Translations under genes and position numbers: made by a program
Source of the DNA: Lytechinus pictus
Lineage: Eukaryota
Direction: 5' to 3'
Length of the DNA stretch: 64,000 nt
Assembly (NCBI RefSeq): GCF_037042905.1
Contig: NC_087252.1
Coordinates: forward strand, 372,001 to 436,000
The notes under the pieces: model-generated
Database searches by the model: none
The model's input: the letters and a program-made list of their open reading frames with translations, nothing else
Told to the model about the DNA's origin: nothing
In this document: positions 5,177 through 53,664 of the stretch, piece after piece
How the letters are laid out: every line of letters begins with the position of its first letter
How positions within the stretch are numbered: the stretch's first letter is position 1

Positions 5177-5235
<59 letters not shown>

Positions 5236-14200: not shown

Positions 14201-14272
14201 CATAACCATCATAATCCTCATATCACTATCATCATCATCATCATCATCACCATCACCACCATCACCACCACC

Positions 14273-14303
<31 letters not shown>

Positions 14304-17300: not shown

Positions 17301-20300
17301 AGACACATCCTGTATGGTCAGCAGAGGTCTTGTAGCCATTTCATGCAAGTTTTTATCTGGTGTGGATGTATCGTTTCAACAGGTATGGGTACATCTTATG
17401 TTTATGAATAATTGTATTCAAATTTATATTTTTATCATAAACATATTGTTTTTTTTGTTTTTTTTGTAAGACACATCCTGTATGGTCAGCAGAGGTCTTG
17501 TAGCCATTTCATGCAAGTTTTTATCTGGTGTGGATGTATCGTTTCAACAGGTATGGGTACATCTTATGTTTATGAATAATTGTATTCAAATTTATATTCT
17601 TATCATAAACATATTGGCCCATATTCTGAAGTTGGGTTGAACTTAAACTCAGGTTTAAAGTTGTGGTTTAAGTATGGATAGCCAATTGTTATATAAATCA
17701 CTAGCAGTAGAGATATCATATTTCAGCTCATTTGCCTCTCAAATCATTCATAATTGTCTAGGAATTATAGATGATTGTCTTCACCATCGATGAATCAGGA
17801 AAGAGCACAGTAAACATAAGAAACATACAACTAAATAAAATGGTTGACACTTTTGGCTTCCCATAATTTTAGCACAAAGTTAGACCATAGTCAAAATTAA
17901 ATCTGACTTCAGAATACGGGCAATAAGGTCAAAACTCTACAACAGATCAGCAGATCAGAAAGAACAAGAGACATGCTATTCAGTTAATGACAGTTTAATT
18001 CTCAACAAGCCAAAGTCGCCCTTTCCCACAACTCCACGCACATAAATCCCACAGAGCAGCAAGTAATCTAGCAAAGATATTACCTCAGTTGTGACAGTGT
18101 GGACGAAAGCATCTAGTGGGATGCCCTCGTGTGGTGGCATACTGTAGGGTGGTACAGCCTCAGACCACATCACCATCTCTCCGCTCTCACTATCTACAAA
18201 ATAATCAAACACCTGAAGGAAAAAAAATCAAAGAAATCAAAGGGAAATGTTAGAACCATAATGTCAATGAATATACATCATTATCAATCCAGTTTTAAAT
18301 TTGATTTTGTCTCTAGAGGTGGATTCACTTCACACTGGCAAAAATCTAATTCGCTGATAACAGAATAGCAATGGGAATACATGCAGTATATTTGCATCTT
18401 TAGAGATCAGCCTATCGTTAAGCTCAACCAACAATCTCTAACAATAAATCTATTACAAATCCCTCAATGGTGCAACTTAGTCACAGAACACAGTTCAAGA
18501 TTCAAGACTCCTTGATTTATTGAAACCTTCCTGACAAAAAAAAAAGCGCTCTCTTTTCTAGTTACAGATTAGATATATTACTAACCTCGCCCTCTTCAGG
18601 ATAAATCTCACGTTTCTCCCATTTAGAGCGCCACCAATGGCTGAAGGTAGAGCGATGCTTCTCTTCCAGCGTCCCACCGAATGCCCAGACTGCAGCAAAG
18701 CTGACGTAGCGCTCGTACTGCTCATCACTAAGCTCTGTATTCTGAGCAATGATGGCCTATTGGGATGGAGAAAAATAATTTAAAAGTGCAAAACAGGTTC
18801 CTGAGATCTGCCTGATGACAATATCTCGGTCTCATCATGTCTACATGTTTAGAAGAGATGATCAGGGCCCCATTTTATAAAGACTTCTTACTATAACAAA
18901 TGCCTAACAAGTTTACCATAAGCCAATCACATTGAATGATTTTAGTAACTTTAAACTGTTATTGCAAATTATACTTTATGGAACTGGCACCAGATAAACA
19001 AAACCTTATTTGATAATCTCTTCTACCAAACGTAGACACAACAGAATGATTATCTGGACGTCTGGTTAGCACTTATAAACCTCAATAATTCATACAATTT
19101 TACAAAATACATGGAAGGGTACACTTCAGTCTAATTCTGTAATACGTATCCACTCCAGTAAAGGCTAGTCACTAACACATAGAGACATTGATAAACACCA
19201 AAGTCTACCCTAAAATCAATAATGTAGCTTGTTTCTTACATCTAAGATGGCACAGAAAGTAAGGACCATGTTGCTTTTGCTACCCTAGAATCAATAATAA
19301 AGCTTGTTTCTTACATCTAAGATGGCACAGAAAGTAAGGACCATGTTGCTTTCACTCGTATCCACAATCCTCTTCATCTTAGGCCTCTTTCTTTGTTTAC
19401 TGGTTGTCATGACAGCTGGTCTAAGACACAGGTCCAGGTACTCCATGGTAGGACCAAGATACATGTCTGCTAGAACCTTGAGGATCTCCTGGTCCTTCTC
19501 TGGACGTCGGTCTAACCAGGCGGTCAGGAGCAGGGCCCAGCTGACGTCAGACCGGTCCATGGAGAGCAGGCCTACTCGGGAGATTAGGCCTGGACTAAGA
19601 TGGTCCACACTCTCAATCTAGGATACACAGATATTAATCATGAAATGGTACTTTATTCATTCATCTGTTTTGTCTATAAAAGGTCAAATTTTTTCACTAA
19701 TTTTATTCATTCTTTGCTTTATAATTAATATAGTAATGTTACAACTTATTATAATAAATTTTATTATATAAAATTGAAATGCAATTTGCACAACTGTTTT
19801 CCTCCAATGAAGAAATCCCTGGACCTACTACACTATTCACATGAAATACTTCGGAAAAATAGTACAAAACATATTTAGTATAAAACTGCGTTTTTGTAGA
19901 GCAGTTCTAATAATGCACATTCAAATATAAAACTACATGTATGGCTTAACTTCTGCAAAATGCAGTGTGATTAACGATTCAACCATATATTTCTCATTTG
20001 GAAAAACATTGACTAAGGAAAAGAATGCTACATGTATCTACATTCTTCAGTCTGTAAAAAATAATGTTCCTTTCCTACACTGGCCTAATTATGCACATCA
20101 CACATTTCAAATTGACATAAAGGAAGAATAAATATCAATCTTACCTCCCAGAAGATTGAGAAATTATCTGGTATGTGAACACGTTCATTATTGGCAAGAA
20201 CCAGAATACCATCATGATCAAAGAGAGAACTCAAGATTTCCATCTGGGTGGCATTGATCTATAAAGAAATATTTTCAAAAAATCATTCTAAAGCAAACTT

Positions 20301-21678
20301 TCAATGAGAAAAAGAACAAAAACAATGATCGCTGATTTTAATAGTTATAATACAGGTAGTGTAGTAGGTTTCACGGTACATCATGTATCTTTCTTGGGCA
20401 AGTGAAAAAGACCACCAAATCTCGTCGTTTCGACAAGTGTGTTCTCGTCCTGAGGACGACAAGAACACACTTGTTGAAACATCAAGATTCGGTGGTCCTT
20501 TTCAGGACCAACACTTGCCCAAGAAAGATACATGGTATACCGTGAAACCTACTGCACTATTCTCCTTCACCATGGAAACCTTCAGAAGTTATACAATACA
20601 GGTATTGTTCATGTTCAATGATGATATTCATAATATCTACATCGATCTGTTTTACTCACCACTATGCTACTTAACATTCATCAAATATATTCATACATGC
20701 ATAATATCACTTGCTGAATGTTTAAACAAGGATATTTGGACAATGCTATTAGGTTACCAAAATTAGATAGAATTACAAGTATAGAGCAAACAGATGAACA
20801 GACACTTCAGATGAAAACAAAAAAAACCCAGCTGTACGATATACACTTGAGGGTCCCGTAACACAAAGGTTAGCGATTAATTGTTCGCTTGATTTTCACG
20901 ATTGATTGTACTTTGTAGTCAATGCAATCAATCATAGAAAAGTGTTCTACGATGATTGCTAAGCTTAGAGTTAAGGGCCCAGGATTATATTATTTTACAA
21001 TGGCCCGTATTTTGAAGTCAGGTTTAACTTAAACTCGGGTTTAAAGTTGTGGTTTAAGTATGGATAGCCAATTGTTACATAAATCACTAACAGTAGAGAT
21101 ATAATATTTCAGAACATTTGGCTCTCAAATCATTCATAATTGTGTAGGAAGTATAAATAGATGATTGTCTTCACCATCGATGAATCAGGAAAGAGCACAG
21201 TAAACACAAGAAACATACAACTTAATACAAATTTTGACACTTGTGGCTTCCCATAATTTCAGCACAGAGTTAGACCATGGTCTATTAAGTTAAACCAGAC
21301 TTCAGAATACGGGCTAATGTGTTTACCTCTCCATCTAGATGCATAGCTTTCATGTGTGGTTTAGTCTGACTGAAGTCTGCTTTAGGAATGAGACATAGCT
21401 TACGAAGCAATGCGATGAACAGACCATCACGCCACTCCCTACATGGTGAAAATAGGAACAAATTATGTTTGAGTTGAAATCAATCACAGCATAAGAGATA
21501 AATATGTCACATTTAAAATGATTCTGCCAGCTCCCAACACCCCCCCCCAATAAAGTTTGAATTGAAATGGATACACAACAACTGTAATTGCTCTCACCGT
21601 CTCCCCTCCCATGAACAAAATGTTTGAGTTGAAATCAATCACAGCTTAAATAACAGACTTCTATTTATCTACCTATAA

Positions 21679-21766
<88 letters not shown>

Positions 21767-21779
21767 GTCTATCTGTCTA

Positions 21780-21811
<32 letters not shown>

Positions 21812-21819
21812 TCTGTCTA

Positions 21820-21856
<37 letters not shown>

Positions 21857-24800
21857 AAGTCTGTCAGTCAGTCAGTCAGTCAGTCAGTCAGTCAGTCAGT
21901 CAGTCAGTCAGTCAGTCAGTCAGTCAGTCAGTCAGTCAGTCAGTCAGTCAGTCAGTCAGTCAGTCAGTCAGTCAGTCAGTCAGTCAGTCAGTCAGTCAGT
22001 CAGTCAGTCAGTCAGTCAGTCAATCAATCAATCAATCTATCACTGTCTCCTTCTTTTTACTCACTTAGTTTCTGGATCAGCGCTACCAAGAAGCTCCACA
22101 GACTCCACTGCTTGAAGGAAGATCCTATGAGTAGTCACAATCTTTCCAGTCTCCCTCTGAGCCGACATTAACGTCTTGATGCATTCACTTTTACCACAGC
22201 CTGGCGGTCCGGTTACAATCACCTGAAATATACAAACAGTCTTGATTTGTTGATATGCATGGAGTGGAGTAGCCCAATCGATTCGTTACCAGGCTTTGGA
22301 ACATAGGGTCATGGGTTTGAATCCCAGCCATCGCATATTTTCCTCCAGCAAGAATTGGTCCACATTGTGCTGCGATTGGCCCAGGCGTGGTGGATGGGTA
22401 CCAGTAGGATTTTTATTTCTTGAATATATTTAAGCGCCTATATGGCGGCTCAGCTACAGGCGGGGTAATAATACCAAGTATCACTCGCAGTTGAGAATAT
22501 TCATATAGAAACAGTGCTATATAAATAAGACATATTATCATTATTATTTTCATTACAAGAGATGTTGTGGTCTAGTGAATATGTCTCTGGAGTATAAATC
22601 ACAAGCTTTGTGGGCAGGTTCTACATGACGCAACATTCAAAGGACAGTATTGCTTCAACTACATCCACTCCTACTTCAATGGTCCTCTTAATCAATGAAA
22701 CTCACTGTTTGATGTGTATTGGTGAGCTGACACAGCTGAGCAACACGAGCTTGGAACGAGGTGCCTGGAAGCAAGCCTAGCTCGTTGGTTGCCACGGCGA
22801 TGGCAGAGTTGATGTCATCAAGGTATTGTTTCTCTCCTCCGGTGTTTGGTAGATAGCTCTGAATGACCTTACTGGGTCCTTGGGTTGATACCACTGGGGT
22901 ATTCAAACTTATCACATCTGTATCAATCAAAGATAAAAATAAGATTTTCCTAATCAAGCTTATGACATGCTTTTGACATATCCTCAAATTGCAGTACTAA
23001 TGGGGCAGTACTAATGATCACTTGCAAGTCTATTTTTGTTCCCAAAATCAAGCATATGCCGTGCAATTAATTGCAAATTTGCGATTGATTTCTAATCTGG
23101 TGGGTGTTTCATAAAGCTGTTTGTAAGATACAAATGACTTTACGCACGACTGGTGATCCTTTCTTGTGTTATGTGATATCCCTGTATAATTGAGTTATGA
23201 CCTAAGAACATGTTCCAGCCGTGCGTAACTTTACGAACAGCTTTATGAAACACCCACCTGCTCCATTAAAAAAGAAATGTAATCTGATTTTGCTTTAGTT
23301 AAAAGTGATCAATCAATTGTAAAATTGCAACAGAATATTTGCGATTGATTGCAATATTTTTCTTGCAACAGCCCCTTAGACACTGTCTGTTCCTCAGATC
23401 TGCCACACAAACATCTTGAAGTGAATTAAATAATTTAGTTTGTTTGAATCATTTTTATTGGATGAAAAATAAATGAGTAGAATATGGCAACTCACCCGAT
23501 GGGTGTTTCATAAAGCTGTTCGTAAGTTAAGAGCGACTGGTGATCCTTTCTTGTGATAAATGATGTTCACCACTATGTTCATTGGTAATTATTAAGCGTG
23601 TAAGAAAGGATCACCAGTCGTTCTTAAAGTTGCTCTTAACTTACAAACAGCTTTATGAAACACCCACCAGGGATAGGCCTTGATAAACCATGGCCAATGG
23701 TCTCCTATCTGACCTTAACATCAGCTACGTAAAATATTAATGTGAATGTAACATTAATATTCCATTTTCTTTGTATTTTTTTGTGATTCATGCAATAATC
23801 GATGAATTGAATTTAATATTGTAACTCACCAGATTTCTTGCCGATGGAAGGATCGACACCTCCAAAGCCCATGTCCACTGGTGTGTCTGGGAAGACATCC
23901 GTTACCATGGTAACAAACATATCAGCATCACTGCCATGGAGACGAGGCATGAATGTGTTCCTCAGAGCACTGACGATTGCCTCAATCTCATACTTAGCAA
24001 GTGGTTCAGGTAACTCAAAGCTTCCTACAAACCAAAACAGAAATTAATAAAAAAATACAAACATAATATTTTGAAAAAAATATAAATATGCATGTCTACT
24101 TTTATATATACATGTATAGCTTCAAATCGCAATAATGATGCTATTTTACTCTAACCATAGTTGTTATTGTTGAATATGATTTTAGCCCCTATTGTGTCCC
24201 TGGGTGTGTCTGTGGGAGATTTGCGCACTGTATAGATACAAAATTATCATTATTATTTGGTTCTAGTAAATAGCATCTGTAACGCAATGAGAAAGCTGAA
24301 TCTTTTTAACTTTCAGATTTCTTCTCCCAATCAATCAATCTGATATGTGCATATGCATTATATTTCACTTCTTCTTACACTAAATCAAACCATAAATGTG
24401 TCAAGATGGCAACACTCCTTTGCACCAGGCTTTCATCTGACAACCTATCTGACATATTGTAGTGTCTTCCAGTAACAATAGCCCTATTTTTCAAACAGTG
24501 GAGGTCATTTTTTTATGAAGCCTATCAAAGGAAAATCACTCACCCTTTTCAGTTTGCTTTTCATCTTCTTTATCTTCTAATTGATCTTCCTCAGCTACTA
24601 GCTGCAGCGGGTCTCTGTTTTCTATGCTTACCAACTCAGCCAAAGCTGCAAGGAGATACAAAAAGGAACAACATCAATAACCAGGGAATAATTTTACACA
24701 CACACAACAAAAGAATCAGATGTAATTTCCAAAGGAAATATTTCCATGATAATAATCCAGCTGACCCCTCGTACATTAAATTGTAATTAGCATACATGAA

Positions 24801-27800
24801 CATGTACATGTATGCTAACAAGCATAAGCCAAGGTTTGACTATGCTTCAAATCTCCATGTGGTATGATATTAGGGAGTTTTCACCTAGCACCATAAGGAG
24901 GGTTTCAGAACAGAGAAAATGTATTGTCAAATGCCCTTCTTGACAAAGAATAACCACAAACTCTTTGTCAAAACTTGGTGAATTAAAACAGCAGTTTAGT
25001 CCTTTGACTCTGGATAATAAACATATTTGCAATTTTTTATGAGCTCCAAGACTAAGGACGAAACCACCGTCCAGGCTCACTAATTTTCAACACAGGCCTC
25101 CCCGCTCTCCGTTGTCATTTGACGGGCATCTTTAATACATTTTACCGCGTTCTTGAATCCAACATAAGTCATGGAGAAAAAAACTCCCTATTAATCTCTA
25201 GTTAATCCTTTTCAACTGAGGAAAATTGTTATAAAATTACTCTAATTTTTACGGACAAGTTCAATATCAAAATGCTTTTACCTGTTTGATATTCTTCTTC
25301 CATGTAGTTAGCCTGTAGTTCATCCAGTAGAATACCAGCTTCAGTGATGATATTCCTCATGTTACGTATGCTCCATCCATGAGGGCCTTCATATGCTGCA
25401 TTCCCTGTCAAAATAAAAGTAGTGTGCACAACAAATGACGGATTAGATTTGAAGTGGAAATAACCCTTCCTCGATTAAGGATTGCAAAAATTATTTTTAC
25501 TAGTATACAAATAATGAATGTTTATGAGTGCAATGGACAGAATACTTCATGAGGTGAAAGATGAAATAATCCATTTAACGAGGCGTAGCCGAGTTGAATG
25601 GATCGTTATTTCATCTTTCACCGAATGAAGTACATTATCCTGTCCATTGCACGAATGAAAAAAACATTCATTATTTGGTTTATATGACACCTAAATAATT
25701 ATTCTTTTTCCATATGAAATTCATGAATTTCGATGCAAAACATGCTCATGCAGTGCGAGTTCGGTCTGTTGATTTTTACGTCATTACAACATGTGCACTG
25801 CTGGTGCATGAGCTGCAGTCTCGGTGAGCGAGTGCAATGGACAAAATCGTATGGATCCAAAATTGCACGATGAATGGATCCAAAATTGCACGGTTGATGA
25901 CGTCATTGCAAAATGGGCTGAATGAACGATATCAAACAACCAATCAAATCACAAGGATCTATCTAGGTGTAATATAATTGTATCTATTGCTGGTCATATT
26001 TAAGGTGATTGGATCAATTACACCACATTGTAACACTGACCTCTGAACTGGATAAGAATGCTAAACTAGATTATCAACTTACTAAGTTTGTTATCATTGT
26101 TAACAGTGAGTCCCATTGGAATGATCTTGATGTACATCTCTCTCAATGAAGCTAGTCTTGAAGATAGCTCTGCAGCCTGCCTAAAGCCTGTAAAATTAAA
26201 ATAACGAATAGATAAACTTTGCAAAAATCTCAACTGACCAATGTGAATACGATCTCATTAAAGCATTCAAAAATTCAATTACTTGCCTGTGTTGCCTTGT
26301 TTCATAACCTTTATTGATAAATTTTCATATATACATTTTTTAAAAGTAAATATGTTTGTAATTCAAAAAATAAATAAATAAATTACATAGTCTGAAAAGT
26401 GGCATCAAAATTGTACACCATGAATAAATTACAAGATGGCTTGGGGTCACATACATGTAGGTACCTTCACACAAGCCAGAATCCTCACTGTGACATTCAT
26501 TATAGACAAAACAATGAGGCATGCTGGGAGGCCACTGTGAAATACACATAGAATACTTATAATATAGCAGGATTCCTGCTTAAAGAAGCAGTAGATGTTT
26601 CTTTTAAAGTGTCTCAGTGCAATATATATTCCATTGAAATGAACAGAATTTATGAAAAGTCTTTGGACTTTGAACCACAAAGTGCAGGGTTCAAATCCCA
26701 CAGCATTAATCTATATACACCCTGTAAATGTTGCATATTACTATTATCATGACTATAAATACATGTACCTTGAGAGAGAAGAATGATCTCCATACTAATC
26801 CTGAAATCAGGACTGGTGATGGACACTGTCCTAAACAGACCGGTCAGATCTGACGGAAGCATGGACATCGTAGAGTTCAACACAAGGTGACGGTCAATGT
26901 TGGACATGGACGGAGCTTCGAGGGCGCTGTCCAGGGTAGCGAAGCACGCCCCCAATGGGTTGAGGGCGATCTCTTCTCCGAGAGCAGCGTAGGTGATGTG
27001 AGGGCGCTTCGCACGGAGTGCTTCAAGGTAGGTCTGTAGGAGCTCACAGAGGACACTCAAGGCTCCTGGGACGATGTGAGCAAGGTTGTTGAAACACACC
27101 CAAGAACCTAAACGATTCATAAAATATGGAAAAAAATTGTGTTTATATTGGTCCTTTTCAAAGGGTAGTCATGAGGCAAGTTTGAATGTTATCTTCTTGT
27201 TCCCCTTCTCATAGCTACACTGCCTCATTCAATTCTTAATAACTTGAGGAAATTATTTATAAAATTTGGAAAACCTTTTTTCATGTTTTTTCATCTTTCT
27301 TCTGTATGTTTTATTTAGAAAGCAAGAGGTCTTTCTCATTATGTAGTTATGGGGCAAGTTCAAATGTTGTTTTATTCTTCCCTCTTTGTATTTTTTTGTA
27401 GAAAAGTGGTCCTTCTCACAAGTTGTAACTGAGCAGGGCGCGACAAACCCGCTTGCCCGGGGCAAGTGAAAATGACGTGCGGGCAAGCATTTCTCAAAGT
27501 CAATTGCCCGATCGGGCAAGTGGTTGTTTTGAAAATGAACAAGATAAATTGACAGTAAAGTTTAACAATTTTTTGATAAATTGCAATTATCGGCCAATTA
27601 TCTCTCATACAATGTCATACCAGTAAAAAAACAGTGGAAACATGTCAAATCAGCGCCAATTTACCGACAAAAGGCGACAATTTATCACCAGCGGTCCCGT
27701 TCGATGGAGGCTGCCATCTTACTTTCTAAACTACAATGTGCGCATGCGCTACTAATCAACGAAGGAGAGCTAGCTGGGGAAACCCCTCTCTCGCCCTCTG

Positions 27801-30800
27801 AGCGCATGTACGGACGTACACGAGCGATCGAGCCAGCCGAGTCTCGAGCTAGATCGCGCTGAATGCATGCAAGCTTTGGACTGACTCGGCCAGGACCAGA
27901 CGTCCCGTATTTTATTCATTTCTAAAACATTTCAGTTTTTCTTTTTTAAATATATAAAAGAAACACCAAATATCATTAGGATTTTTGTCATATGATTGGA
28001 TTGTTTTTATTTGCTTGAAGTTTGAACTTTTTCCTCTTTCTTTCTTTTCTATCTTTCCTTCTTGCCCTTTTTTGTTACATATCTATTTTTATTTCCTGAT
28101 CCTTTCTCTCTCTCTCTCTCTCTGTTCATTTTCTTTCTTTCCTTCTTTCTCTTACTTGCCTTCTTTATTACATTTTCTTTTTTTGTTTCCTTCATTCCTT
28201 CTCCCTTCCACTCGTTTTTTATTTTCGTTCTATCTCTCCTTCCATTATTATTTTTTTTCATTCTGGCCTCCCTTCATTCTTTCCTCCCTCTCTTTCCTCC
28301 TTTCTTTCTTTCTTTCTTTCATTATTTATTTCATTTTGTCCTTATTCTTTTCCCTTATACTTTCTTTCCCTTTCTTCCTTCCTTCCTGTTTTCTTCTTTC
28401 TTTCCAAGAATGAAGGAAAATTTTCTTTCCTTCATTCTTTCTTTCCTCCTCCTTTTTTCTTACTTTCTTTTTGTCTTTCTCTTCTTTGTTTTGACTTTTA
28501 CACATTTGCTCATCTTCCCTTTTCTTTTTTTTTCTTTCTATATTCAATTCAAAGAATGACAGAAACCTTTTTATCTATTTTTATTCTCTCATCCATTTAT
28601 TAGAACTTTCTTATATTTTTATTATTTCCTTCATTTTCCCCTTCATTTTTTCTTTCTTTCTTCTCAATTCATCTCTTTTCTTTCTCTCCTTCATTCTTTC
28701 GTTCACCCTCCCTTCCAATTCTGTACTTTTTTCACAAGTCTAACACTGTGTAGCCTTCTTTCTTGATCTTTTTTTTTTGTCGATTGTCCCGTATTTCATT
28801 TTGTGAAATCTGGTCACCCTGGCCAGGACTCCGCTTCAAATTCAAACCAAATAAACAATGAGTCGTCAGACTAAAATAGGCGACTTTTGTCGTCGTGATC
28901 GGCGACCAGAACAACTTGAACAAGAGTCAAGAAAAATAAATGCCAAGGGCAGCGCAAGTAAATCAAGTTCAGCCAGGACAGAAAAGAATAATTAAGAGCA
29001 AAATAATTTTTTTTTTTAAATTGGGCAAGCAGTTTTTTCTATCGGGCAAGCAAATTTTTTTATCACTTGCCCGACAGGGCAAGTGATGAATTTTTTTTTT
29101 GTAGAGGCCTGCTGAGGTAAGTGTGGATGTTGACCAGCAGGTGCAATACACCAGGGTCCCGTCTTAGAAAGAGTTACAATTGATCTGATCAACCTCAACT
29201 ATGGAAATCCATCAATGTTATATTTTTCTACACGAAGCTTGCACAATGTCCTTTGTACAACAGGAAAAAAATGAAGGTATAACCATATCAAGGAAATATT
29301 TTAAACATACATGCATTTTAGATGTTGGCATTGCTGGCTTTCCATAGTTGTGACTGATTGGAGCAATCACAAGTCTTTATAAGATGGGGCCTAGGTTTCC
29401 ACCGTACTCTTTCATGAAAAGCCACTTTGTTTTATTAACACAAGACAGCTTCATTGTCCCTGGGGCTGTCAATTCCCCTATCATCTGATTACTTTATGAT
29501 AGTTGTGATAGTTTGTACAAAAGAATGGAATAAGTTACCACAAAACTTTAGATCCAGTCCAACACTGCCCATATTTAAAAATTCATGTCGAAAATATTTA
29601 TTTGAAAGATTACAAAATATCTTAAATTGATTCTTGATAAACCATGTGTGTTGTGTGTGTGTGTGTGCGTGTTGTGTTTGTATGCATTTTCTTATTTTAC
29701 TCTTTAGATTATCATTGTAAATATGTTTTTCATCTCATTATTGTTGTAATGTACTTTATAAGGGGCCCCTCCCACAAGCTCTGCTTCTATGCCCAGGACC
29801 AAAATCCAATTGAAACCAGTTGGATTTCCAACTGGTTTCAATTGGTTTCAACTGGTTTCAATTGGTTTTAACTGGAATTTAACAATTTCCAGTTGAAACC
29901 AATTGAAACCAGTTGGGCAACTGGAAATCCTAACTGGAACCAGTTGGGTAACTGGAAATGACTTCCAATTGGAAATGATTTCTAACTGGAACCAGTTGAG
30001 TAACTGGAAATCCCAACTGGAACCAGTTGGGCAACTGGAAATCCTAACTGGAACCAGTTGGGTAACTGGAAATGTCTTCCAATTGGAAATGATTTCTTAC
30101 TGGAACCAGTTGAGTAACTGGAAATCCCAACTGGAACCAGTTGGGCAACTGGAAATCCTAACTGGAACCAGTTGGGTAACTGGAAATGACTTCCAATTGG
30201 AAATTATTTCTAACTGGAACCAGTTGGGCAACTGGAAATCCTAACTGGAACCAGTTGGGTAACTGGAAATGACTTCCAACTGGAAATGATTTCTAACTGG
30301 AGCCAGTTGAGTAACTGGAAATCCCAACTGGAACCAGTTGGGCAACTGGAAATCCTAACTGGAACCAGTTGGGTAACTGGAAATGACTTCCAATTGGAAA
30401 TGATTTCTTACTGGAACCAGTTGAGTAACTGGAAATCCCAACCGGAACCAGTTGGGCAACTGGAAATCCTAACTGGAACCAGTTGGGTAACTGGAAATGA
30501 CTTCCAATTGGAAATGATTTCTAACTGGAACCAGTTGGGCAACTGGAAATCCTAACTGGAACCAGTTGGGTAACTGGAAATGACTTCCAATTGGAAATTA
30601 TTTCTAACTGGAACCAGTTGGGCAACTGGAAATCCTAACTGGAACCAGTTGGGTAACTGGAAATGACTTCCAACTGGAAATGATTTCTAACTGGAACCAG
30701 TTGAGTAACTGGAAATCCCAACTGGAACCAGTTGGGCAACTGGAAATCCTAACTGGAACCAGTTGGGTAACTGGAAATGACTTCCAATTGGAAATGATTT

Positions 30801-33800
30801 CTTACTGGAACCAGTTGAGTAACTGGAAATCCCAACTGGAACCAGTTGGGCAACTGGAAATCCTAACTGGAACCAGTTGGGTAACTGGAAATGACTTCCA
30901 ATTGGAAATTATTTCTAACTGGAACCAGTTGGGCAACTGGAAATCCTAACTGGAACCAGTTGGGTAACTGGAAATCCTAACTTGAACCATTCAGTTGTGT
31001 AACTGGAAATCCTAACTGGTACCAATTGGGTAACTGAGATGACTTCTAACTGGAAAGATGGTAACTGGAAATGAATTCTAATTGGAACCAGTTGGGTAAC
31101 TGGAAATTATTTCCAATTGGTTTCCAATTGGAAATTTTCCAGTTACCCAACTGGATCCAATTGAAACCAGTTAATTTGCATATTATTTGCCAGTGTGCAC
31201 ATATTAATGTTTTATGAGATTAATCATCATTAACAATGTATCTATTTAATTCTTTACAATTTCAAGTACCACACTTTTTAAAGATTAGTATTTAGAATAC
31301 TTAGCAGTGAAAACCATGTTCATAAATGTTATAGATTATAATTAAAACAGATTAAAGGATAATTAGTACACCACTAACTGTTACCAAATTACATCAAATA
31401 AAAGTACATATATTTGAAGATCTTCCATATAAATATATACACATGAAAGTCTGTATTTTATCAATGCCCTTTACATTGGTATTAATAGACATATAACACT
31501 GCTTCTGTGTTGGCATGAGAAATAGTTAGTGCAAATGCTAATTAATTTGTAACTAATTAAGTTCGTTCCAACTGGAAGTTCCAATTGGATCCAGTTGGAA
31601 ACCAATTGGTTTCAACTGGTTCCAGTTGAAACCAGTTGCCTCCAATTGGTTTCAACTGGAACCAATTGAAACCAGTTGCCTCCAATTGGATTCAATTGGT
31701 TTTAATAGGGAAATTGGAACAACTGGAACTAATTGACAATAATTGCCAACTGGTTCCAGTTGCCCAATTGGTTTTAACTGGAACCAATTGGCAACTGGTT
31801 TTCAATTGGTTTTTAACTGGAACCAATTGGCAACTGGTTTTCAATTGGAACCAGTTGTTCCAATTTCCCTATTGAAACCAGTTGGCCAACTGGTTTCAAT
31901 TGGTTTTGCCCTAATTGGTTTTAACTGGATTTTGGTCCTGGGTGGGGTCCCAAACCTATCATGCATTCTCATTTTTGTTAAGCTATGTGATATGTCTCTT
32001 GTTCTTGATTGGTTTGAATAAATTTGAACTTTGAACTTTGAACTCATATCACATACCTGTTGATGCTAGCCCCCTGAAGATATCGACCAACATAAGAACA
32101 TCCATTGTCTTTGTACAGTTGAAGACATACAGAGGTTGACCTACAATACGACTCAGCTCTCTCGCAGTCTCAACACGTCCACTCAACTATGTAAATAACA
32201 TATGAATCAATAAATTAGGCTACTGTACAACATAACATTAAAATTCAATGTTTTGTGTGTTTCTCTCCATTGTCCTAAACTCTTGAACCTCGAGACAGTT
32301 TAGGAAGTATGAATGCATGACATTACAATATCTTGATAATAAGTTTTCAGGAGATCCCAATCACTTTAATCCCATCAGGTATGGTTAAAGTATTACAATG
32401 CTTGATTTCAATGAGAATTTTCATGTAAAGTTTATTAACTGTCAAAATTTGGGGGGGGGGGGTTGAAAATACACATCATAATAAAACAAACCAAGGGGAA
32501 AAGGTGATCCAGTAATGGGTTACTTTGCAAAGAGCTTGTATAGAAGCCTTTCATAATAAGCCATCTTGCAACTTTGTTAGGTTTTGATTACCTGAGCAAT
32601 ACAGATTGACTATTAAGGTAATATTGGGACAATAGCATAATTATCCAAGAAACAATTAAATAAATGAACAAAGACATGGATCATTAAAAAAGGTAAATGA
32701 AAGGGTAAACATATGAATGTAAAATTGTATAAGTAAATTATGAGATAATGTATGAAAACAACTAATCAACAAAATGAAAAAAAAAAAAAAAAAAACAATT
32801 AACTTACATTTGAGCCAACACACATGGCTGCAGTATGACTCTTTATGGTACTAGCCATGCTATAATACATCTTCTCTGTGCCTGGAAGGAAGGCTAGACG
32901 TGCTGCCGATCCTTGGTATTCAAAGCCATAGTCAAACTCTGCATCAAGGAGCTGTAAATAGATAAAATAAGGGGAAAATCATTTTAAATATGCATCAATG
33001 TTCTTTGAATGCACTCTTGCAATAAACGTATTAACTTATAGATGCAATGTTATTTTCCCCCACTTTTAATTATATATCTGTGAACTCAACATCCAAATGA
33101 GGGAACTCATGAAAAATGTGGCACGGGATGAGTTGATTGACCTTCCGCCCTCCCACCATTTCAACCTTGATTTCATTTTCGAAATACAGTTATGATCTAA
33201 AACATGATCTAATTTAATTCCAAGAATCAAAATGTATTTACATGTACATGTAGATCATAGATTTAAAGGTTTGATGTTCTCATATCTCTTGACCACAAGG
33301 TAAGGTAGCAAACCAATCCTGGGGGTCATTTCATAAAGCTATTCATTAGGAACAACTGTAAGAATCTCTCGATCCTTTTTGTTTATATGGTATGCACCAA
33401 AATGTTAATTGGCGAATGCACAGCACGTAGAAATTTTCACAAGTCATTCTGAAAGTAGCTCTTAACTTATAAACAGCTATATGTAACACCCAACAGTTGG
33501 GTGAAAATAGGTACTCTGTTGGGAATTTATTCACAGAAATTATTTTGTGCCCCAGAGACAACTGTATGCTGAAGGCATGATTAATGACTGTAGAGCACCT
33601 ATGTCTTATAAGAAAAAGTTTTAAAATCAATTCCAAAATTGGCAATGACCATTCTAAATTATTGTTGCATGCTCATACTGAAACATTTTGTTCAATGATA
33701 GTGCACACCAATGTGAATCACAATTCAATTTTATTGCAAATACACTTTTAAAAGGCTGGAGGAATCTATATAAGAGGTTATACGAACCCATCATTATTTA

Positions 33801-36800
33801 ATAGAAACAACTTGTGGATAGCAGAAAAATGAAAAATTGTTTGAATGATGGGGCAGTATGTACCTTGACTTTCAAGTTATTGCTGCTTTCATCCCAGTTG
33901 TATCTAAGCTGGCTCTTCCATTCAAAGCAATCAGCAAGCTTGCCAGTCTCATCCTGCTTCTTATCAAATCTGGGAAAATATGAAAAGAAACAAAAAATTT
34001 AAATTCCTGCTCAGGTTCAAACTCACCATATTTCCACTCCTGAAGACGGACAGTCAACCTGTCCGAAAGGTTGAGTCTCTCTACTACTCATCATCTCTAC
34101 TCGCCGACTCAAGCCAGCATCTCCTCATTAGCTCTACTACTCAAGCTGTTCTCAACTCATCAATCTTTCCTGGTTTACAGTCCTTTTCAGGACTACTTTC
34201 AAGAAAGAATACTCTACTCTCAAATCTCCACTTTCTCGCCTATCCATTTCTTCTCTTCTTCTATCCACTGTTTCTACAACACTCCACATGGTGTACCGTA
34301 AACCACATCAGCGATTGTACATGCCACCATGCAAACCTTCAAACAACATCCAATAAATATTTCATCGTTATGTACGTATTTATTAATTCATCTATCTATC
34401 CATCTATCTATTTATTTGTTTCTGTATTTATCAGTATATTCATCCACATATTTATTGTTATCATTACTGTATACACTATACACGATTATCAGGACAAAAA
34501 CAAGAATAAGAATGAGATACATACATACATGTTTGTACAGAACAAAGAAAATGAAGAGAAAATATAACGGAAAACAGAAAGAAAAAAATATAAATATCAT
34601 TGAAGGTGATTGATACCCCACCATACATGTACAATGTATAGCTGTTACCAGTACACTTGAATCAAATGGATAATGAATGTTTGTACAAAATTTTGTACAA
34701 AAGCTATGGAAACAAAACTGGGGAATTAGTTGTCCTGGGTTTTGGGCACTAGCATGCTGTTATCATGGAAATACAATTTCAAATAGATTTGGAAAATGAA
34801 CTTGCATATTTTTATCTAAAGACAAATGTTGCTGACAACTTTCATGAGCACTGGATACAAACTGGGAAAGTGGTGAGATCAGTAATGAGTTTTCCTGTTT
34901 TGGGTCAAAATATGTGGTTACCATGGCAACACAATGACAAATGAGAAAATAATGTGTCTTACACATCTTTTCATCCTTTCATATGTGGGTGGTAAATTCT
35001 GTGAGAATCGGGTTAAGAACTGATCAAGTAGGTTGAACAAGATTTTTGGCCAATTTTCATAATATAATAATTTTATTACAAAATGGCTAAACAAGCAAAA
35101 AAGAAGTCTTGCACATCAGGACCTCAGGACCAACATGTGACCCAAATCTCATGAGTATTGATTAAAAATTATGAAGTAGTTCGAACTGCAAGATTTTTAC
35201 CTATTTTTTTTGGCCATATTATATGTTGTTACCATGGCAACACAGTTTTTGACACACGCAAACAAATTTGTCTTGCACATCTTTATCTCAAAACCAATGT
35301 GTTTAGCCAAATTTCATGAGAATTGGTTAAAAACTGAGGAAGTATTTTGAACCACAATATTTTATCAAATTTTTGCCAATATACTGTTACCATGGCAACA
35401 CAATTTCCAACACATGCGAAAATGGATTTTTGCACATTTTTAACCCCATTACCAGTGTGTGTTCCAAACTTTATGAGAATTGGTTAAATGTACAACATAA
35501 TTTGCAACCAACCATCAGCCCAACTGTACAACGATTCCCCCTTTAATAAAAATAGGGAAAGAGGGAAAAAAAGGAAATACAAATGAGGGTGTACACAAAA
35601 TCCCAAATAAAAAAATATTGAAAGTATCACAACAATAAATTAGAATGAAACAGGAAACTGGGAAAGTGGAAATAACCTGAATTCTCTTTCTGAAAATCAG
35701 CCATATTTCTTTAATAATTCAATTGAATTAAAGGTCCTTCCTATATCGATGATACTGAGATGTGTTGAAATACTGTCTTACCAGGTCAGTAGACTAGGGT
35801 GCTTGTGTTGATAGAGCTGACATAACGTTGTGTGATAGGCAATACATGTACATGTATGATCATACAACCACCGATTCATGATCATTGCTTCAACAGTCCA
35901 TTGTTATTATACTGAAACATGGCAGGTCAATCAATAAAAATATCTGAAAATATGCATTCATCTGTAAATGCAAAATGCCCGATAGCTACATGTATCCAAG
36001 CACTCGCTCAATATTATTTGGACTTTGGACATGATAAATTTTTAATCTTTTTAATCTTTTCTGTGTTCAAACTTTGAGAATGTTTGCTTTGCTATTAAGT
36101 TTGGCAACAATAGGGATCGAGACTTTTGTGCAGGGTTAGCGACGGAGCATGCGCGTTTGCATGCAATTTCTTCCGGTTTCACAGTTTTCCCGTACTACTA
36201 GACATGTATACAAGTCGATCGTTCCAACACACTGTTTCTACTTACAACTAATAATTGTTCCTCATCTTGTAAAAGCCAATTACACACAATTGCAGGGGTT
36301 TATGGCATCTGAGTCCAGAATTTGACAAGTGAGTATAATTAAAACAATGAATGCAATGATATTGCAGTGTAGTCTTACCATTTACATGTAGATCTAGTGA
36401 GAGTTACCAATGTGTTATATTCATGTAGTGTTGGCTGTACATGTATGTAATGGGTCAGAGTGAAATATACAAGAATGTAATCAACATAATATTTTAACCC
36501 GACTTATAACAGAACAAAAATGAGAAAGAGGGGGAAGGTAAGGGAAGAATTCAATTGCAGACTGTCCTGATTTTATTAGGAATGTCCTGATTTTCAACTT
36601 TCAAAGTGGCTAAAAGATTCAGGATTGTTGTCCTGATTTCTGAAATTCAATTGGAGAAAAAAATATTAAGAGAAAAATTACCAATAGCAATGGACCCATT
36701 CGTACCACCAAGTCTTCAATACACCCCTGTACATGTAAAAGAGCCCAGTATTTTAAGGGTTAACCCTATCTAGACCGGGGTATTTTGGGAGTTCATATGG

Positions 36801-39800
36801 CCGGGGGGGGGGGGGGTGGGCTTCCCAGGCCCCCCCCTTGAGATTTTGGCTGTTGGCCACATGATCGCGCTGAAAACTGGCATGCAGGTTGTCTTGGACA
36901 TAATCTACAAAACTGTATAGCAATTTATTTCATGCAAATTGGTATTTAGCGATTATGCTAATTTATGCGTCATTGGTATGCGAAATCATACTTTTCCCTC
37001 TAACTCCCTAAATAAAGCTGCAATTGTTACAATTTTTGGTATAAAAACTCTTTTTGGTGTTCCTTGCATGTGTACATGAAAAAAATTGCGATATCAGAGT
37101 AATTTCTTATGTATTTTAATTTTTGGCAATTATACTTACATGTACATGCATGTATTTCCTTGTTTTTTGGACCTATTGTGTTTCAATGAAAAGTGTTTTC
37201 AATGAAATTTGTTGGGAACTCTTCTAAGATCATAAACAGCATAAAATAAATACATTTAGACCAGCAAAACTAAAAATAATCATACATTTATGATTATTGG
37301 TTGAAAACAGAATTTGCATTGACTTTGTACACGAAATCACATTTTCAAGCAATTTTTGGTCTGACATGCACTTACATAATGTTGCCTAATTTTGGAACCG
37401 CGTACATAGGTGACACAACTTTGGTCTCAAAAGTTGCGCAAGACAGGGTTAAGGTTGACAAAAATGCAGGAGCTTCAGGAGCACTGCTTTCTGGACTCCT
37501 CATGTGACCCTCATTACCTAAAAAGAGCTAATTCCTTTTAATCCTTATAAGTAGGAGTGGGCTATACATGGGTCAAAAATACTTCTTTTTTCATTTTAAT
37601 ATGCCAACAGTTTTTATTTATTCCAAGGTTGTAATGTATCTCAACATATAATGACAATATTCTTTCTCTCCTCTACCTTGTTTTACGGATTACATGTATT
37701 TGCGAAATATATCATATTAAATAAAAAAAAAATGTAATTTATCCACAGGTGCTATCTACAGTATAGTACAATGTATTGTACATACTGCACTGCATAATGT
37801 ATGTCCTTGCATTGACCACCATTTGTAGGATAAACTAGTGTCATAGAAATGACCTCTTGAATTATATGCCTCAGAAAGTGAAGATACTATACATGTATGT
37901 TTTGTCCCAGAAATTGAAGACACGTTTTGTCCAATATGCATACAGGGGGTGGAAGAGTGGTAAATATCATTAACAATGGATTATACATGTAGCTAGTCAA
38001 CCCCATATATTATGGCATTTACACTGTGGTTATTCTGTTACCATTAGGGTAACTTTGCCATCCAATTGTTACTTTCATGGAATCCTAAATTCTGATTGGC
38101 CGTTGATCATCGTTACATTATCATGGTAGTTACCTGACCCCATGAACATAGGGTTAGACACCCCAACCATGTAAGAACAAGCCTCCAAATGAAGAAGGTA
38201 TGGCTAAAAATGTGATGTAAGTACGTGTACATGATATTTATGTGCAATTTATGTTTATCATCGGGTTACATCATGTACAATGTACATGTACATCAGCTAA
38301 AAAGCAATTAAAATTCACAAGTGACAATCTAATTCTAAACCTCAGGAGCTCACTTCTATGACACGATAAATTATATAAAGGGACTTGTTATATGTCATGG
38401 TGGTCAATGCATGGATATTATACATATAGTGCATGCTGTTGAGTTCAATATACCATAATATGAGTGTCCATAGATTTCAAATTTCTTGCGTGCGTTTATA
38501 GAGGGCGTAGGCCGAGTTGAAATATAAACACACAAGAGAAATTTATGGATATGAATGATATTGTATATTAAACGATAATAAGCATGTACTATGCGTTATA
38601 TGAGATGGGAACACAGAAAAATTACCGCATAATCGTTTTCCTCAAGGTATCGATCGATGGATCACCTTATGAGGTTTTGTACACAAGCTATCGTGCAGAA
38701 ATTGCCGGTATATGCCATGATCGTGGCCATATACCGGATTACGTCATTGCAATTGACCAATCAGAAGCCTTCTCTCATACCACCCATCTTATATACATGT
38801 ATGCTGTGTCGTATGTACAATATATATATATTAGCCTGTATGGATAAATTACATTTTTTTTATTTAATAAGATATATTTCGCAAATATCTGTACAACACA
38901 ATTCTATACGAAGCTGCTTACTACATCTCAACTGGTATAGTCTAATATCCAAGAACCACGAAACTATGAAACCTAATTTTTGGCTGAAAAAAGGGTCTAA
39001 AATGTGTAAATTTAAGTAAAAATCACCTTTCAACTCTACAAATAATGGTTTAAAAGTACTAATTTTAGGAAAAACAAATTGCCTGCCCCCCACAACATAT
39101 GAATAGACACTAAAACCAGAGAAAAAGACCACCTAATAAAGAAGTTGTGGCCAAAACTTTGATTTTGGGGGATTTAAATCCCCCAAAATCACAGTTTTGG
39201 CCACAACTTCTATTTGGCGGCTATTTTGGATTTTGGCCCGGCATACTTTTTTCTCGGACCCAAGACAAAAAATATTTTCATTTCATGTTGAGATAAGAAG
39301 GTAAAAGGAATGCAAAATAACTGTTGCCACAGAAAAACCAAAAATCACCCATTTATAGCCCACTCCTATAATAAGACTGAAGGGGCTGATTCATGCAGCC
39401 CCCCCCCCCTTAACATTTTTTGCAATAAATCCAACGCACAAAATTTTCTGACACGGTCACTCGTTGACTTTTTACTTTCAAGTCTCGCGAACTTTTGAGA
39501 CCAAAATTGTGAGCCCCTGGCACATATACTTGGTTGCGTAGTTACAACATGTATGCAACATTTTGTACATGTAAGTGCATGCAGACCCAAGAATACAGTG
39601 TATGTGAATTTGTGTAAAAATCCAGCGCAAATAGTGTTTTTCTGTATCTGTATCGATCAGTCAGCAAAATTCCAGGATTGGCACATCACGCTAACTTGAA
39701 GAACATGCTACATGTACGTGTGGAGTGGCTCAAAGTATTAACTGATATTAATTTTGATCTATTCTAGCTGAAAATACGGATACAAAGAAAGAGTCCTGAA

Positions 39801-53633: not shown

Positions 53634-53664
<31 letters not shown>

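What the first reader, a model, noticed from the sequence alone, without database searches (positions are those of the whole stretch)
26769..32951. Dynein heavy chain with a dead AAA1 catalytic site in an otherwise intact gene
Seen: spliced AAA1 reads MCVGSN|LSGRVET where dyneins have [18 protein letters not shown] where they have WxCFDEFN, and FATLDS where they have FITMNP; the GYAGR segment is absent. Established: AAA1 Walker A Lys and Walker B Asp/Glu drive the dynein power stroke. Yet all 47 exons keep frame and splice sites, AAA2 (GPPGCGKS) and AAA3 (GEAGCGKT) P-loops are intact, and the MTBD is recognisable. Inference: a maintained pseudo-motor acting as a structural tether, brake or regulator, possibly DNHD1-like or a separate outer-arm-beta-derived lineage.
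Basis: partly seen in the sequence, partly recalled or inferred. Interest (0 to 1): 0.8.

Follow-up and report, generated by a model that had tools for sequence, protein, structure and literature searches.

The report
Third "dead-motor" dynein heavy chain
This sea-urchin gene encodes a giant dynein whose main ATP-burning site has been inactive since before corals and vertebrates split, yet the protein has been kept intact, so it probably acts as a structural or regulatory arm in cilia and sperm tails, not as a motor.

Summary
Three minus-strand exons (32951-32808, 32186-32057, 27107-26769) splice into a dynein AAA1 module. It reads GSNLSGRVE where canonical chains have GPAGTGKTE, CFNNLA for CFDEFN, and a 15-residue insert replaces the NPGY sensor-I loop.

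The gene is intact. My model has 87 homology-supported GT-AG exons and 5,406 codons with no stop, spanning 118.5 kb; 44 exons lie in the window.

It is neither DNHD1 nor the published non-motile DNAHX. Both sit at other loci of the same genome (C13:6.1M and C4:19.48M).

It belongs to a separate animal family (coral, annelid, echinoderms, hemichordate, tunicates, sturgeon, lungfish, amphibians). That family fits Kollmar's 2016 "class-13" dyneins: outer-arm-beta-type tail, enlarged AAA5, low-complexity C-terminal extension.

Walker B Asp and Glu are each absent in 20 of 20 family rows. The AAA4 P-loop lysine is also lost. AAA2, AAA3 and above all the microtubule-binding domain are strongly conserved.

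Best reading: a maintained heavy chain whose AAA1 cannot hydrolyse ATP and which still binds microtubules. The family and the idea of non-motile dyneins are both in print, but I found no description of the dead AAA1 of this class.

Expression was not tested: the read-laying run failed.

The parts
1262..62311 (-). Part of the gene that lies in the window: 44 homology-supported exons (7,767 coding nt; model residues 1358-3946, from the linker to the start of AAA5). The whole gene runs from window coordinate 91223 to about -27314.
   Evidence: Multi-guide spliced model; all junctions GT-AG, no stop
32808..32951 (-). AAA1 exon a: ..[20 protein letters not shown] (first half of the degenerate Walker A)
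   Evidence: 14 of 14 guides agree on the junction
32057..32186 (-). AAA1 exon b: [17 protein letters not shown] (Walker A Lys replaced by Arg, Thr by Val)
   Evidence: 15 of 15 guides agree
26769..27107 (-). AAA1 exon c: [10 protein letters not shown] (Walker B Asp-Glu replaced by Asn-Asn), FATLDS plus a 15-residue sensor-I insert, [18 protein letters not shown]
26083..26187 (-). AAA1 small-domain exon ([14 protein letters not shown]..)
   Evidence: 100% match to P0002; model
22065..22222 (-). AAA2 P-loop exon (GPPGCGKS), intact
16917..17077 (-). AAA3 P-loop exon (GEAGCGKT), intact
16249..16375 (-). AAA3 Walker B exon (LVDDLNL, as in canonical axonemal chains)
7647..7889 (-). AAA4 exon with a degenerate P-loop (ADGNPGLSN where canonical chains have GVGGSGK)
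3250..4248 (-). End of stalk coiled-coil 1 and the microtubule-binding domain (exons 4248-3969, 3724-3658, 3411-3250); the most conserved block of the family
   Evidence: 80% identity to crinoid, 62% to salamander in this bin
1262..1546 (-). Exon at the start of AAA5, where the family-specific insert begins (91 residues in this gene)
59807..59986 (-). Exon of the family-specific Ser/Arg-rich insert in the linker region, ending ..[19 protein letters not shown]

Best explanation
The window holds the middle of a 118-kb, 87-exon sea-urchin gene for a dynein heavy chain of about 5,400 residues. It belongs to the animal-specific family that Kollmar (2016) called class 13 (DHC13).

Shown: the tail is of the outer-arm beta type. 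The motor has the full six-AAA ring, a stalk of normal length and a microtubule-binding domain. In AAA1 the residues that coordinate and hydrolyse ATP are gone: Walker B Asp-Glu in the whole family, the Walker A Thr/Ser in nearly all members, and the Walker A Lys in ambulacrarians and tunicates. The sensor-I loop is replaced by an insert, and the AAA4 P-loop lysine is lost.

Inferred: AAA1 is kept as a structural module of the ring and cannot drive an ATP-powered stroke. The chain is held in an outer-arm-like complex by its conserved tail. It binds the neighbouring microtubule through its highly conserved domain, perhaps with affinity tuned by the intact AAA3 site. It would then work as a static or regulated cross-bridge or assembly partner, not as a force generator.
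For: Motifs and splice.

Intact gene: 87 exons, 5,406 codons, 0 stops, all GT-AG.

The AAA1 core is still predicted as a AAA+ fold. pLDDT is 80-94 over most of residues 80-205 and 230-282 of P0002, and the sensor-I insert (208-224) is disordered. Foldseek top hits are all dynein motors.

Family: 12 of 12 rows form one clade with support 100, in an order that follows species relationships.

Family-wide losses: Walker B Asp 0 of 20, Glu 0 of 20; Walker A Thr/Ser 1 of 20; Walker A Lys 15 of 20. The AAA4 lysine is lost in 7 of 7 aligned rows. The AAA2 arginine finger is kept in only 3 of 7.

Conservation is shifted away from AAA1. Urchin-crinoid identity is 49% in the AAA1 bin, against 75% (AAA3), 80% (microtubule-binding domain) and 71% (tail). 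In canonical DNAH9 versus DNAH5 the AAA1 bin is the best conserved, at 63%.

Class-13 traits: beta-type tail (E 1e-60 to 1e-117 against beta tails, 1e-26 to 1e-36 against alpha tails; tail tree split supported at 100). AAA5 inserts and a C-terminal extension. Kollmar's supplement lists DHC11, DHC12 and DHC13 for sea urchin, matching the three odd loci found here.

Coral orthologues of 5,295 residues sit on Logan contigs of only 16.9-18.2 kb. That implies intron-free transcript assemblies, which is my inference.
Against: No expression or protein evidence for the sea-urchin gene was obtained. laid nothing, and one search listed no holder on record as RNA.

Loss of catalysis is inferred from sequence only. 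Fifteen of 20 family rows keep the P-loop Gly-Lys, so nucleotide binding without hydrolysis is possible, as the preprint reports for DNAHX.

In the motor-domain tree (FastTree only) the family sits on a long stem outside the canonical clades, so a beta origin is shown for the tail alone.

My model lacks its 3' end and possibly a few exons. dN/dS was not measured.
Confidence: 0.8

Rival explanations
1. The gene is DNAHX itself (XP_041462850 of Lytechinus variegatus), so the finding is already fully published.
For: Same genus; similar size (5,272 versus about 5,400 residues); AAA1 near residue 2,200 in both; poorly conserved AAA1 in both.
Against: The preprint gives Walker A Thr replaced by Val, 101 residues before sensor-I Ser-x-Thr, with Walker B present. 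Exactly that pattern (GGTGVGKTE, CFDEFQ, NSET at +101 and +103) is at another locus, C4:19.48M. That locus matches a starfish DNAHX-family protein at 66% identity and groups with a frog member beside outer-arm alpha chains.

The window gene has a beta-type tail. It has no insert of 12 or more residues in AAA4S, stalk or microtubule-binding domain. Its family keeps Pfam PF12777, which the DNAHX family lacks.
Confidence: 0.03
2. It is a decaying duplicate (pseudogene) of the outer-arm beta chain, with no function.
For: Catalytic motifs of AAA1 and AAA4 are lost; there are many disordered inserts.
Against: 87 exons with no stop or frameshift and canonical splice sites. Orthologues exist from coral to amphibians with the same derived motifs. 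Identity to a crinoid is 62-80% in many blocks.
Confidence: 0.02
3. AAA1 is still catalytically active, either through an unannotated alternative exon or through non-canonical residues.
For: A 4.9-kb intron separates the AAA1 exons. Arg can partly replace the P-loop Lys in some NTPases (recalled, not tested here).
Against: No canonical-like exon anywhere in the window. Orthologous proteins from 18 named species and one unnamed Logan contig are colinear across these junctions and also lack Asp-Glu. Sensor I, sensor II and the arginine finger are not conserved within the family either.
Confidence: 0.07
4. It is the DNHD1 (class-11) orthologue.
For: The preprint says DNHD1 also lacks Walker B catalytic residues.
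Against: DNHD1-like proteins of Mya and Lottia are remote: E 5e-11 in the family search and a separate clade. They match locus C13:6.1M at 46% identity over 4 HSPs, not this gene.
Confidence: 0.01

Closest known systems
Class-13 dynein heavy chains (DHC13) of Kollmar 2016, Mol Biol Evol 33:3249 (PMC5100056; passages and supplement table read)
   Same: Metazoan-restricted. Tail alignable to outer-arm class-4 (beta) tails. Longer AAA5. Low-complexity C-terminal extension. Listed for sea urchin next to DHC11 and DHC12.
   Different: [quoted passage not shown] The dead AAA1 and AAA4 and the very conserved microtubule-binding domain are described here. Identity with Kollmar's sequences could not be checked directly.
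DNAHX / dynein-X (Chai et al. 2025 preprint, PMC11785096; Results, Discussion and legends read)
   Same: A giant heavy chain of about 5,300 residues found in the same genus. AAA1 motifs are poorly conserved and it is presumed non-motile. It is absent from amniotes and has a similar species range: 10 named species carry both families.
   Different: Different locus and clade. DNAHX has an alpha-type tail, keeps Walker B and the P-loop Lys, and has inserts in AAA4S, stalk and microtubule-binding domain that are said to abolish binding. This gene has a beta-type tail, no Walker B acids, no such inserts and a strongly conserved microtubule-binding domain.
DNHD1 (class 11)
   Same: An orphan heavy chain with AAA1 lacking Walker B catalytic residues, as stated in the preprint.
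   Different: A remote clade. Its orthologue is at C13:6.1M in this genome. It is present in mammals, whereas this family was not seen in amniotes in my searches.
Outer-arm beta heavy chains (DNAH9/11/17; class 4)
   Same: The tail aligns over about 1,300 residues. These are the best full-length BLAST partners of the motor.
   Different: Canonical chains have GPAGTGKTE, CFDEFN and NPGY, and are about 4,450-4,550 residues long. The single canonical beta locus of this genome is at C10:5.76M.

Membership tests
Dynein heavy chain superfamily | AAA1 module of Pfam AAA_6 type and a fold like solved dynein motors | tested here: met
   PF12774 E 5.9e-50 on P0002. 84 PDB dynein sequences matched, best E 1.4e-37. 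Foldseek top hits are all dynein motors.
Dynein heavy chain superfamily | Full architecture: tail, linker, six AAA modules, stalk with microtubule-binding domain, C-terminal domain | tested here: met
   Colinear with the 5,974-residue crinoid chain from residue 1 to 5366. Precomputed Pfam lists of family members include DHC_N1, DHC_N2, AAA_6-9, MT and Dynein_C.
Class-13 DHC (Kollmar 2016) | Distinct, metazoan-only clade in motor-domain phylogeny | tested here: met
   12 of 12 family rows form one clade, support 100. Members are coral, echinoderms, hemichordate, tunicates and anamniote vertebrates. FastTree only.
Class-13 DHC (Kollmar 2016) | N-terminal tail homologous to class-4 (outer-arm beta) tails | tested here: met
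   BLAST. Tail tree of 24 rows and 1,190 columns: family plus beta against alpha plus DNAHX, split supported at 100.
Class-13 DHC (Kollmar 2016) | Longer AAA5 and low-complexity C-terminal extension | tested here: met
   Inserts of 75-136 and 35-71 residues after DNAH9 residues 3425 and 3722. Extensions of 224-609 residues in four of the six family rows checked, only 14 in the coral row, and at least 90 in the still unfinished model of this gene.
Class-13 DHC (Kollmar 2016) | Clusters with Kollmar's own DHC13 sequences | not testable with these tools
   His sequences are not held here. Only the name table listing DHC11/12/13 for sea urchin was seen.
DNAHX | AAA1 with GxxGVGKT, Walker B present, sensor-I Ser-x-Thr at +101/+103 | tested here: not met
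   The window gene has GSNLSGRVE and CFNNLA, with Asp and Ala (of TLDSAL) at the positions +101/+103 from the residue aligned to that Thr. The C4:19.48M locus meets all three.
DNAHX | Inserts in AAA4S (PS2i), stalk and microtubule-binding domain; alpha-derived | tested here: not met
   No insert of 12 or more residues between DNAH9 residues 2765 and 3425. Beta-type tail.
DNHD1 (class 11) | Clusters with DNHD1-named proteins | tested here: not met
Canonical outer-arm beta chain (class 4) | Catalytic AAA1 (GPAGTGKT, DE, NPGY) | tested here: not met

The most novel reading that the evidence does not exclude
This gene encodes the unidentified second heavy chain of 'dynein-X'. On this reading, DHC12 (DNAHX, alpha-type tail, crippled stalk) and DHC13 (this gene, beta-type tail, normal stalk, conserved microtubule-binding domain) pair through their tails like an outer arm. 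Together they form a two-headed complex in which both primary ATP sites are dead and only DHC13 holds the microtubule.

For: Kollmar suggested a class-12/class-13 heterodimer from the tail homologies. The preprint's second head has a canonical extended stalk and lacks the AAA4S insert, which fits this gene. Ten named species plus this genome carry both families, and neither was seen in amniotes. The genome shows only one canonical beta locus, while the preprint's mass spectrometry lists two 'beta' proteins, DNAH17 and a minor DNAH9. NCBI names relatives of this gene 'DNAH9-like' or 'beta chain-like'.

Against: the authors favour DNAH6 or DNAH7. Any canonical chain also fits an 8-Å map. No expression data were obtained here.
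Probability: 0.25. Interest if true: 0.8.

Novelty: new member of a known kind. Interest (0 to 1): 0.55.

Why it matters
Dyneins are normally defined by ATP hydrolysis at AAA1. Two lineages without it (DNHD1 and DNAHX) have recently been linked to cilium and sperm-tail assembly.

This gene shows a third, independent lineage that is ancient (it predates the cnidarian-bilaterian split). It has lost catalysis at AAA1 and nucleotide-binding residues at AAA4. Unlike DNAHX, it has kept an unusually conserved microtubule-binding domain, which gives a natural experiment on what a dynein ring does when it cannot stroke.

It is also a concrete, testable candidate for the missing partner in dynein-X. The family occurs in Xenopus, the axolotl and a Lytechinus sea urchin, where knock-outs and sperm proteomics are feasible.

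Tried and rejected
RNA evidence:
- The look-up of sequencing runs gave no RNA holder listed.
The call was counted and nothing was laid, so expression and splice junctions remain untested by reads.

Tail pairing: complex prediction of a frog DNAHX-family tail (1-450) with the Xenopus family tail (1-450) returned 'no answer' (score 0.00, partner fold uncertain). This is not evidence either way.

I fetched the flanks instead.

PDB sequence searches:
- They found no near-identical chain for this family or for the DNAHX family. Absence from the PDB therefore says nothing.
- One search used the wrong frame and failed; it was not repeated.

Earlier findings of the scan: nothing relevant.

Pfam on four intronic ORFs: no hit.

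Literature (library as described by the tool):
- 'DNHD1' + 'Walker A'
- 'DHC13' + 'dynein' (other hits are the Chlamydomonas gene of that name)
- a six-term search on non-motile or inactive dynein (0 papers)
- 'DNAHX'
- 'dynein-X'
None describes the AAA1 state of class-13 chains.

The preprint's supplement holds no mass-spectrometry accession table as text. Kollmar's supplementary file 1 could not be searched and may bear on class membership.

dN/dS could not be computed because no orthologous coding DNA was available.
Full report
**1. What is at the coordinates.**
The window is eukaryotic DNA of about 37% G+C. It lies at C8:372001-436000 of an 811.7-Mb assembly.
- 32951-32808: ..[43 protein letters not shown]
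- 32186-32057: [44 protein letters not shown]
- 27107-26769: [72 protein letters not shown]

The only database protein found with the third exon was a 558-residue NCBI model from Lytechinus pictus (P0002). It is 99% identical and uses the same two junctions.

P0002 hits Pfam AAA_6 at E 5.9e-50. It matches 84 solved dynein sequences, all at about the same distance (best E 1.4e-37). In the printed alignments:
- GSNLSGRVE lies opposite GPAGTGKTE.
- CFNNLA lies opposite CFDEFN.
- The NPGYxGR sensor-I stretch is replaced.

**2. The gene is whole.**
I used 16 related proteins as guides on the window plus 60 kb of fetched flanks. With them I built a spliced model:
- 87 exons, 16,218 nt, 5,406 codons, no in-frame stop.
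- Every intron is GT-AG.
- The span is 118.5 kb, from window coordinate 91223 to -27314.
- The 3' end was not reached.

The window holds 44 of these exons (residues 1358-3946, from the linker to the start of AAA5). Two stretches of the crinoid guide have no counterpart in my model, so a few exons may be missing from it.

tblastn with the AAA1 segments of four canonical chains finds only the three known exons in the window. A six-frame scan of 26701-33100 finds no P-loop, DE or NPGY string. I therefore see no alternative exon that would restore catalysis.

**3. It is not DNAHX and not DNHD1.**
A 2025 preprint (PMC11785096; Results, Discussion and legends read) describes DNAHX. This is a 5,272-residue non-motile heavy chain from Lytechinus variegatus sperm. 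Its stated features are:
- Walker A Thr replaced by Val (V2221).
- Walker B present.
- Sensor-I Pro and Tyr replaced by Ser and Thr at +101 and +103.
- Inserts in AAA4S, stalk and microtubule-binding domain.
- An origin from the outer-arm alpha chain.

A Pfam AAA_6 scan of the window's own genome gave 90 matches, which I grouped into 19 loci. Reading their exons:
- Locus C4:19.48M has GGTGVGKTE, CFDEFQ and ITVNSET, with Ser and Thr exactly 101 and 103 residues after the Val.
- That locus matches a starfish protein of the DNAHX family at 66% identity.
- In the tree it joins a frog member beside the alpha chains.
- That locus is DNAHX.

Locus C13:6.1M (GPSGVGKTE, LLDNAD) matches a protein named 'DNHD1-like' from Mya at 46% identity over four HSPs.

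The window gene differs from DNAHX in every listed feature. It also has no insert of 12 or more residues anywhere between AAA4 and the end of the stalk.

**4. The family.**
A full HMMER scan with P0002 found 2,741 relatives. Only a few stood clearly above the general dynein background of about 1e-40: a hemichordate fragment (6e-125), a 133-residue ENA fragment 83% identical to the query (4e-46) and a 5,410-residue salamander protein (9e-60).

A word-indexed search seeded from the salamander protein added frogs, axolotl, sturgeon, a crinoid, two tunicates and an unnamed Logan protein. The lungfish and annelid (Capitella) members had already come from the HMMER scan. The cluster of the Logan protein includes a Montipora coral protein. 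After these, the next hits are DNAH11 and DNAH9 (about 1e-56).

In a 62-row, 1,515-column FastTree of linker to AAA3:
- The 12 family rows form one clade (support 100).
- Urchin pairs with crinoid, then hemichordate.
- Tunicates pair with vertebrates.
- The clade lies on a long stem outside the canonical clades.
- It is apart from the DNAHX pair and the DNHD1-like pair.

**5. Fit to Kollmar's class 13.**
Kollmar (2016; PMC5100056, passages read) defined the metazoan classes 11 (DNHD1), 12 and 13:
- Class-12 tails resemble class-3 (alpha/gamma) tails, and class 12 has an aberrant stalk.
- Class-13 tails resemble class-4 (beta) tails.
- Class 13 has longer AAA5 domains and low-complexity C-terminal extensions.
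- He proposed a 12/13 heterodimer.
- He stated that the ATP sites were not analysed.

His supplement lists DHC11, DHC12 and DHC13 for sea urchin.

Results here:
- The tail aligns over about 1,300 residues to beta tails (E 1e-60 to 1e-117), against 1e-26 to 1e-36 for alpha tails.
- An IQ-TREE tail tree of 24 rows and 1,190 columns splits family plus beta from alpha plus DNAHX with support 100.
- All six family rows checked carry inserts after DNAH9 residues 3425 (75-136 aa) and 3722.
- Four of those six carry C-terminal extensions of 224-609 residues and the coral row only 14. This gene has at least 90, Glu-rich, in an unfinished model.

I therefore file the gene as DHC13. The caveat is that I could not compare it with Kollmar's sequences.

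**6. State of the nucleotide sites.**
Across 20 family rows:
- Walker B Asp is kept in 0 and Glu in 0. They are mostly Asn-Asn or Asn-Gly.
- The Walker A Thr/Ser is kept in 1.
- The Walker A Lys is kept in 15. It is lost in urchin, crinoid, hemichordate and both tunicates.

All seven aligned family rows carry an insert in the sensor-I loop. Sensor-II Arg and the AAA2 arginine finger vary within the family; the finger is kept in 3 of 7 rows.

AAA2 (GPPGCGKS) and AAA3 (GEAGCGKT plus the DD Walker B of axonemal chains) are conserved. The AAA4 P-loop Lys is lost in 7 of 7 family rows.

An AlphaFold2 model of P0002, built with a 20-row family alignment, still gives a confident AAA+ core. pLDDT is 80-94 over most of residues 80-205 and 230-282, and the insert (208-224) is disordered. 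The overall mean pLDDT is only 62.6. All leading Foldseek hits are dynein motors.

**7. Where selection acts.**

| Region | Urchin vs crinoid | Urchin vs salamander |
|---|---|---|
| AAA1 bin | 49% | 40% |
| AAA3 bin | 75% | - |
| AAA4S / coiled-coil 1 bins | 76% and 70% | - |
| Microtubule-binding bin | 80% | 62% |
| Tail | 71% | - |

For comparison, between canonical DNAH9 and DNAH5 the AAA1 bin is the best conserved, at 63%.

The constraint has moved from the catalytic site to the tail, AAA3 and the microtubule-binding end.

**8. Mechanism.**
Shown: an intact, ancient heavy chain with a beta-type tail. It lacks the AAA1 and AAA4 residues needed for hydrolysis or binding. It keeps a normal-length stalk and a strongly conserved microtubule-binding domain.

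Inferred:
- It cannot perform an AAA1-driven power stroke.
- It joins an outer-arm-like complex through its tail.
- It binds the adjacent microtubule as a static or AAA3-modulated cross-bridge, brake or assembly partner.

Whether AAA1 is empty or permanently nucleotide-bound, as the preprint reports for DNAHX, is open.

**9. The bolder reading.**
DNAHX forms a heterodimer ('dynein-X') with an unidentified second chain. That chain has a canonical stalk and lacks the AAA4S insert. This gene fits that description, although any canonical chain would too.

Points in favour:
- Its tail type is the natural partner of an alpha-type tail.
- Ten named species carry both families.
- The genome shows one canonical beta locus and three alpha loci. 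The preprint's mass spectrometry lists two 'beta' proteins.
- NCBI labels relatives of this gene 'DNAH9-like' or 'beta chain, ciliary-like'.

I rate this reading at about 25%. A tail-tail complex prediction gave no answer.

**10. What is missing.**
There is no expression evidence for the urchin gene:
- The run search listed no holder on record as RNA.

Indirect support for transcription in the family comes from coral. Its 5,295-residue orthologues sit on Logan contigs of 16.9-18.2 kb, too short to hold introns (my inference).

dN/dS, ATPase activity and localisation were not tested.

**11. Verdict.**

The family was catalogued in 2016, and the concept of non-motile heavy chains was published in 2025 for a different gene of the same genus. 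In my searches I found no description of the dead AAA1 and AAA4 or the conserved microtubule-binding end of class 13.

Noticed in passing
Own genome C4:19.48M (locus L042:1794-5834): AAA1 exons with GGTGVGKTE, CFDEFQ and ITVNSET. This matches the published description of DNAHX and a starfish DNAHX-family protein at 66% identity, so it is the DNAHX locus of this genome.
   Followed up: yes
Own genome C13:6.10-6.11M (loci L041, L046): A divergent heavy-chain locus (GPSGVGKTE; LLDNAD in place of Walker B) that best matches proteins named DNHD1-like. It is probably the DNHD1 (class-11) orthologue.
   Followed up: partly
Own genome C3:10.09M (locus L043): Two tandem, degenerate copies of an alpha-type P-loop exon (SRTGKTA and AGKGKTS variants) plus a Walker-B-less fragment. 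It is 58% identical to DNAH5 and looks like a decayed partial duplicate.
   Followed up: no
window 7647-7889 (-): The AAA4 P-loop reads ADGNPGLSN where canonical chains have GVGGSGK. The lysine is lost in all seven family rows aligned, so only AAA2 and AAA3 keep P-loops.
   Followed up: yes
window 59807-59986 (-): A small exon in a Ser/Arg-rich, family-specific insert of the linker region. It ends [19 protein letters not shown] and is nearly identical in the crinoid. The basic-x-Ser pattern resembles a kinase site (recalled, not tested).
   Followed up: no
window 29790-31900: The 4.9-kb intron between the AAA1 exons holds a tandem array of about 1.1 kb (units of 31, 83, 114 and 197 bp built on AACTGGAACCAGTTGGG). 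It is flanked by related stretches at 29790-29900 and 31580-31900. It looks like a mobile element with internal repeats.
   Followed up: partly
window 28000-28750: A long CT-rich low-complexity tract in the same intron.
   Followed up: no
window 17298-17616: A 168-bp unit repeated 1.9 times at 99% identity, inside an intron.
   Followed up: no
window 34000-49000: A 15-kb intron with several long ORFs (for example 43130-43570 on the minus strand). Three of the four ORFs scanned lie in it (the fourth, 54479-54907, is in another intron) and none has a Pfam hit. Two stretches of the crinoid guide have no counterpart in the model (about 2126-2164 at this intron, about 1997-2071 just upstream of it), so an undetected exon may lie in this region.
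   Followed up: partly
(Pfam lists of relatives): Proteins of the DNAHX family lack the Pfam stalk domain PF12777, while proteins of this gene's family carry it. This agrees with a crippled stalk in the former and an intact one in the latter.
   Followed up: partly
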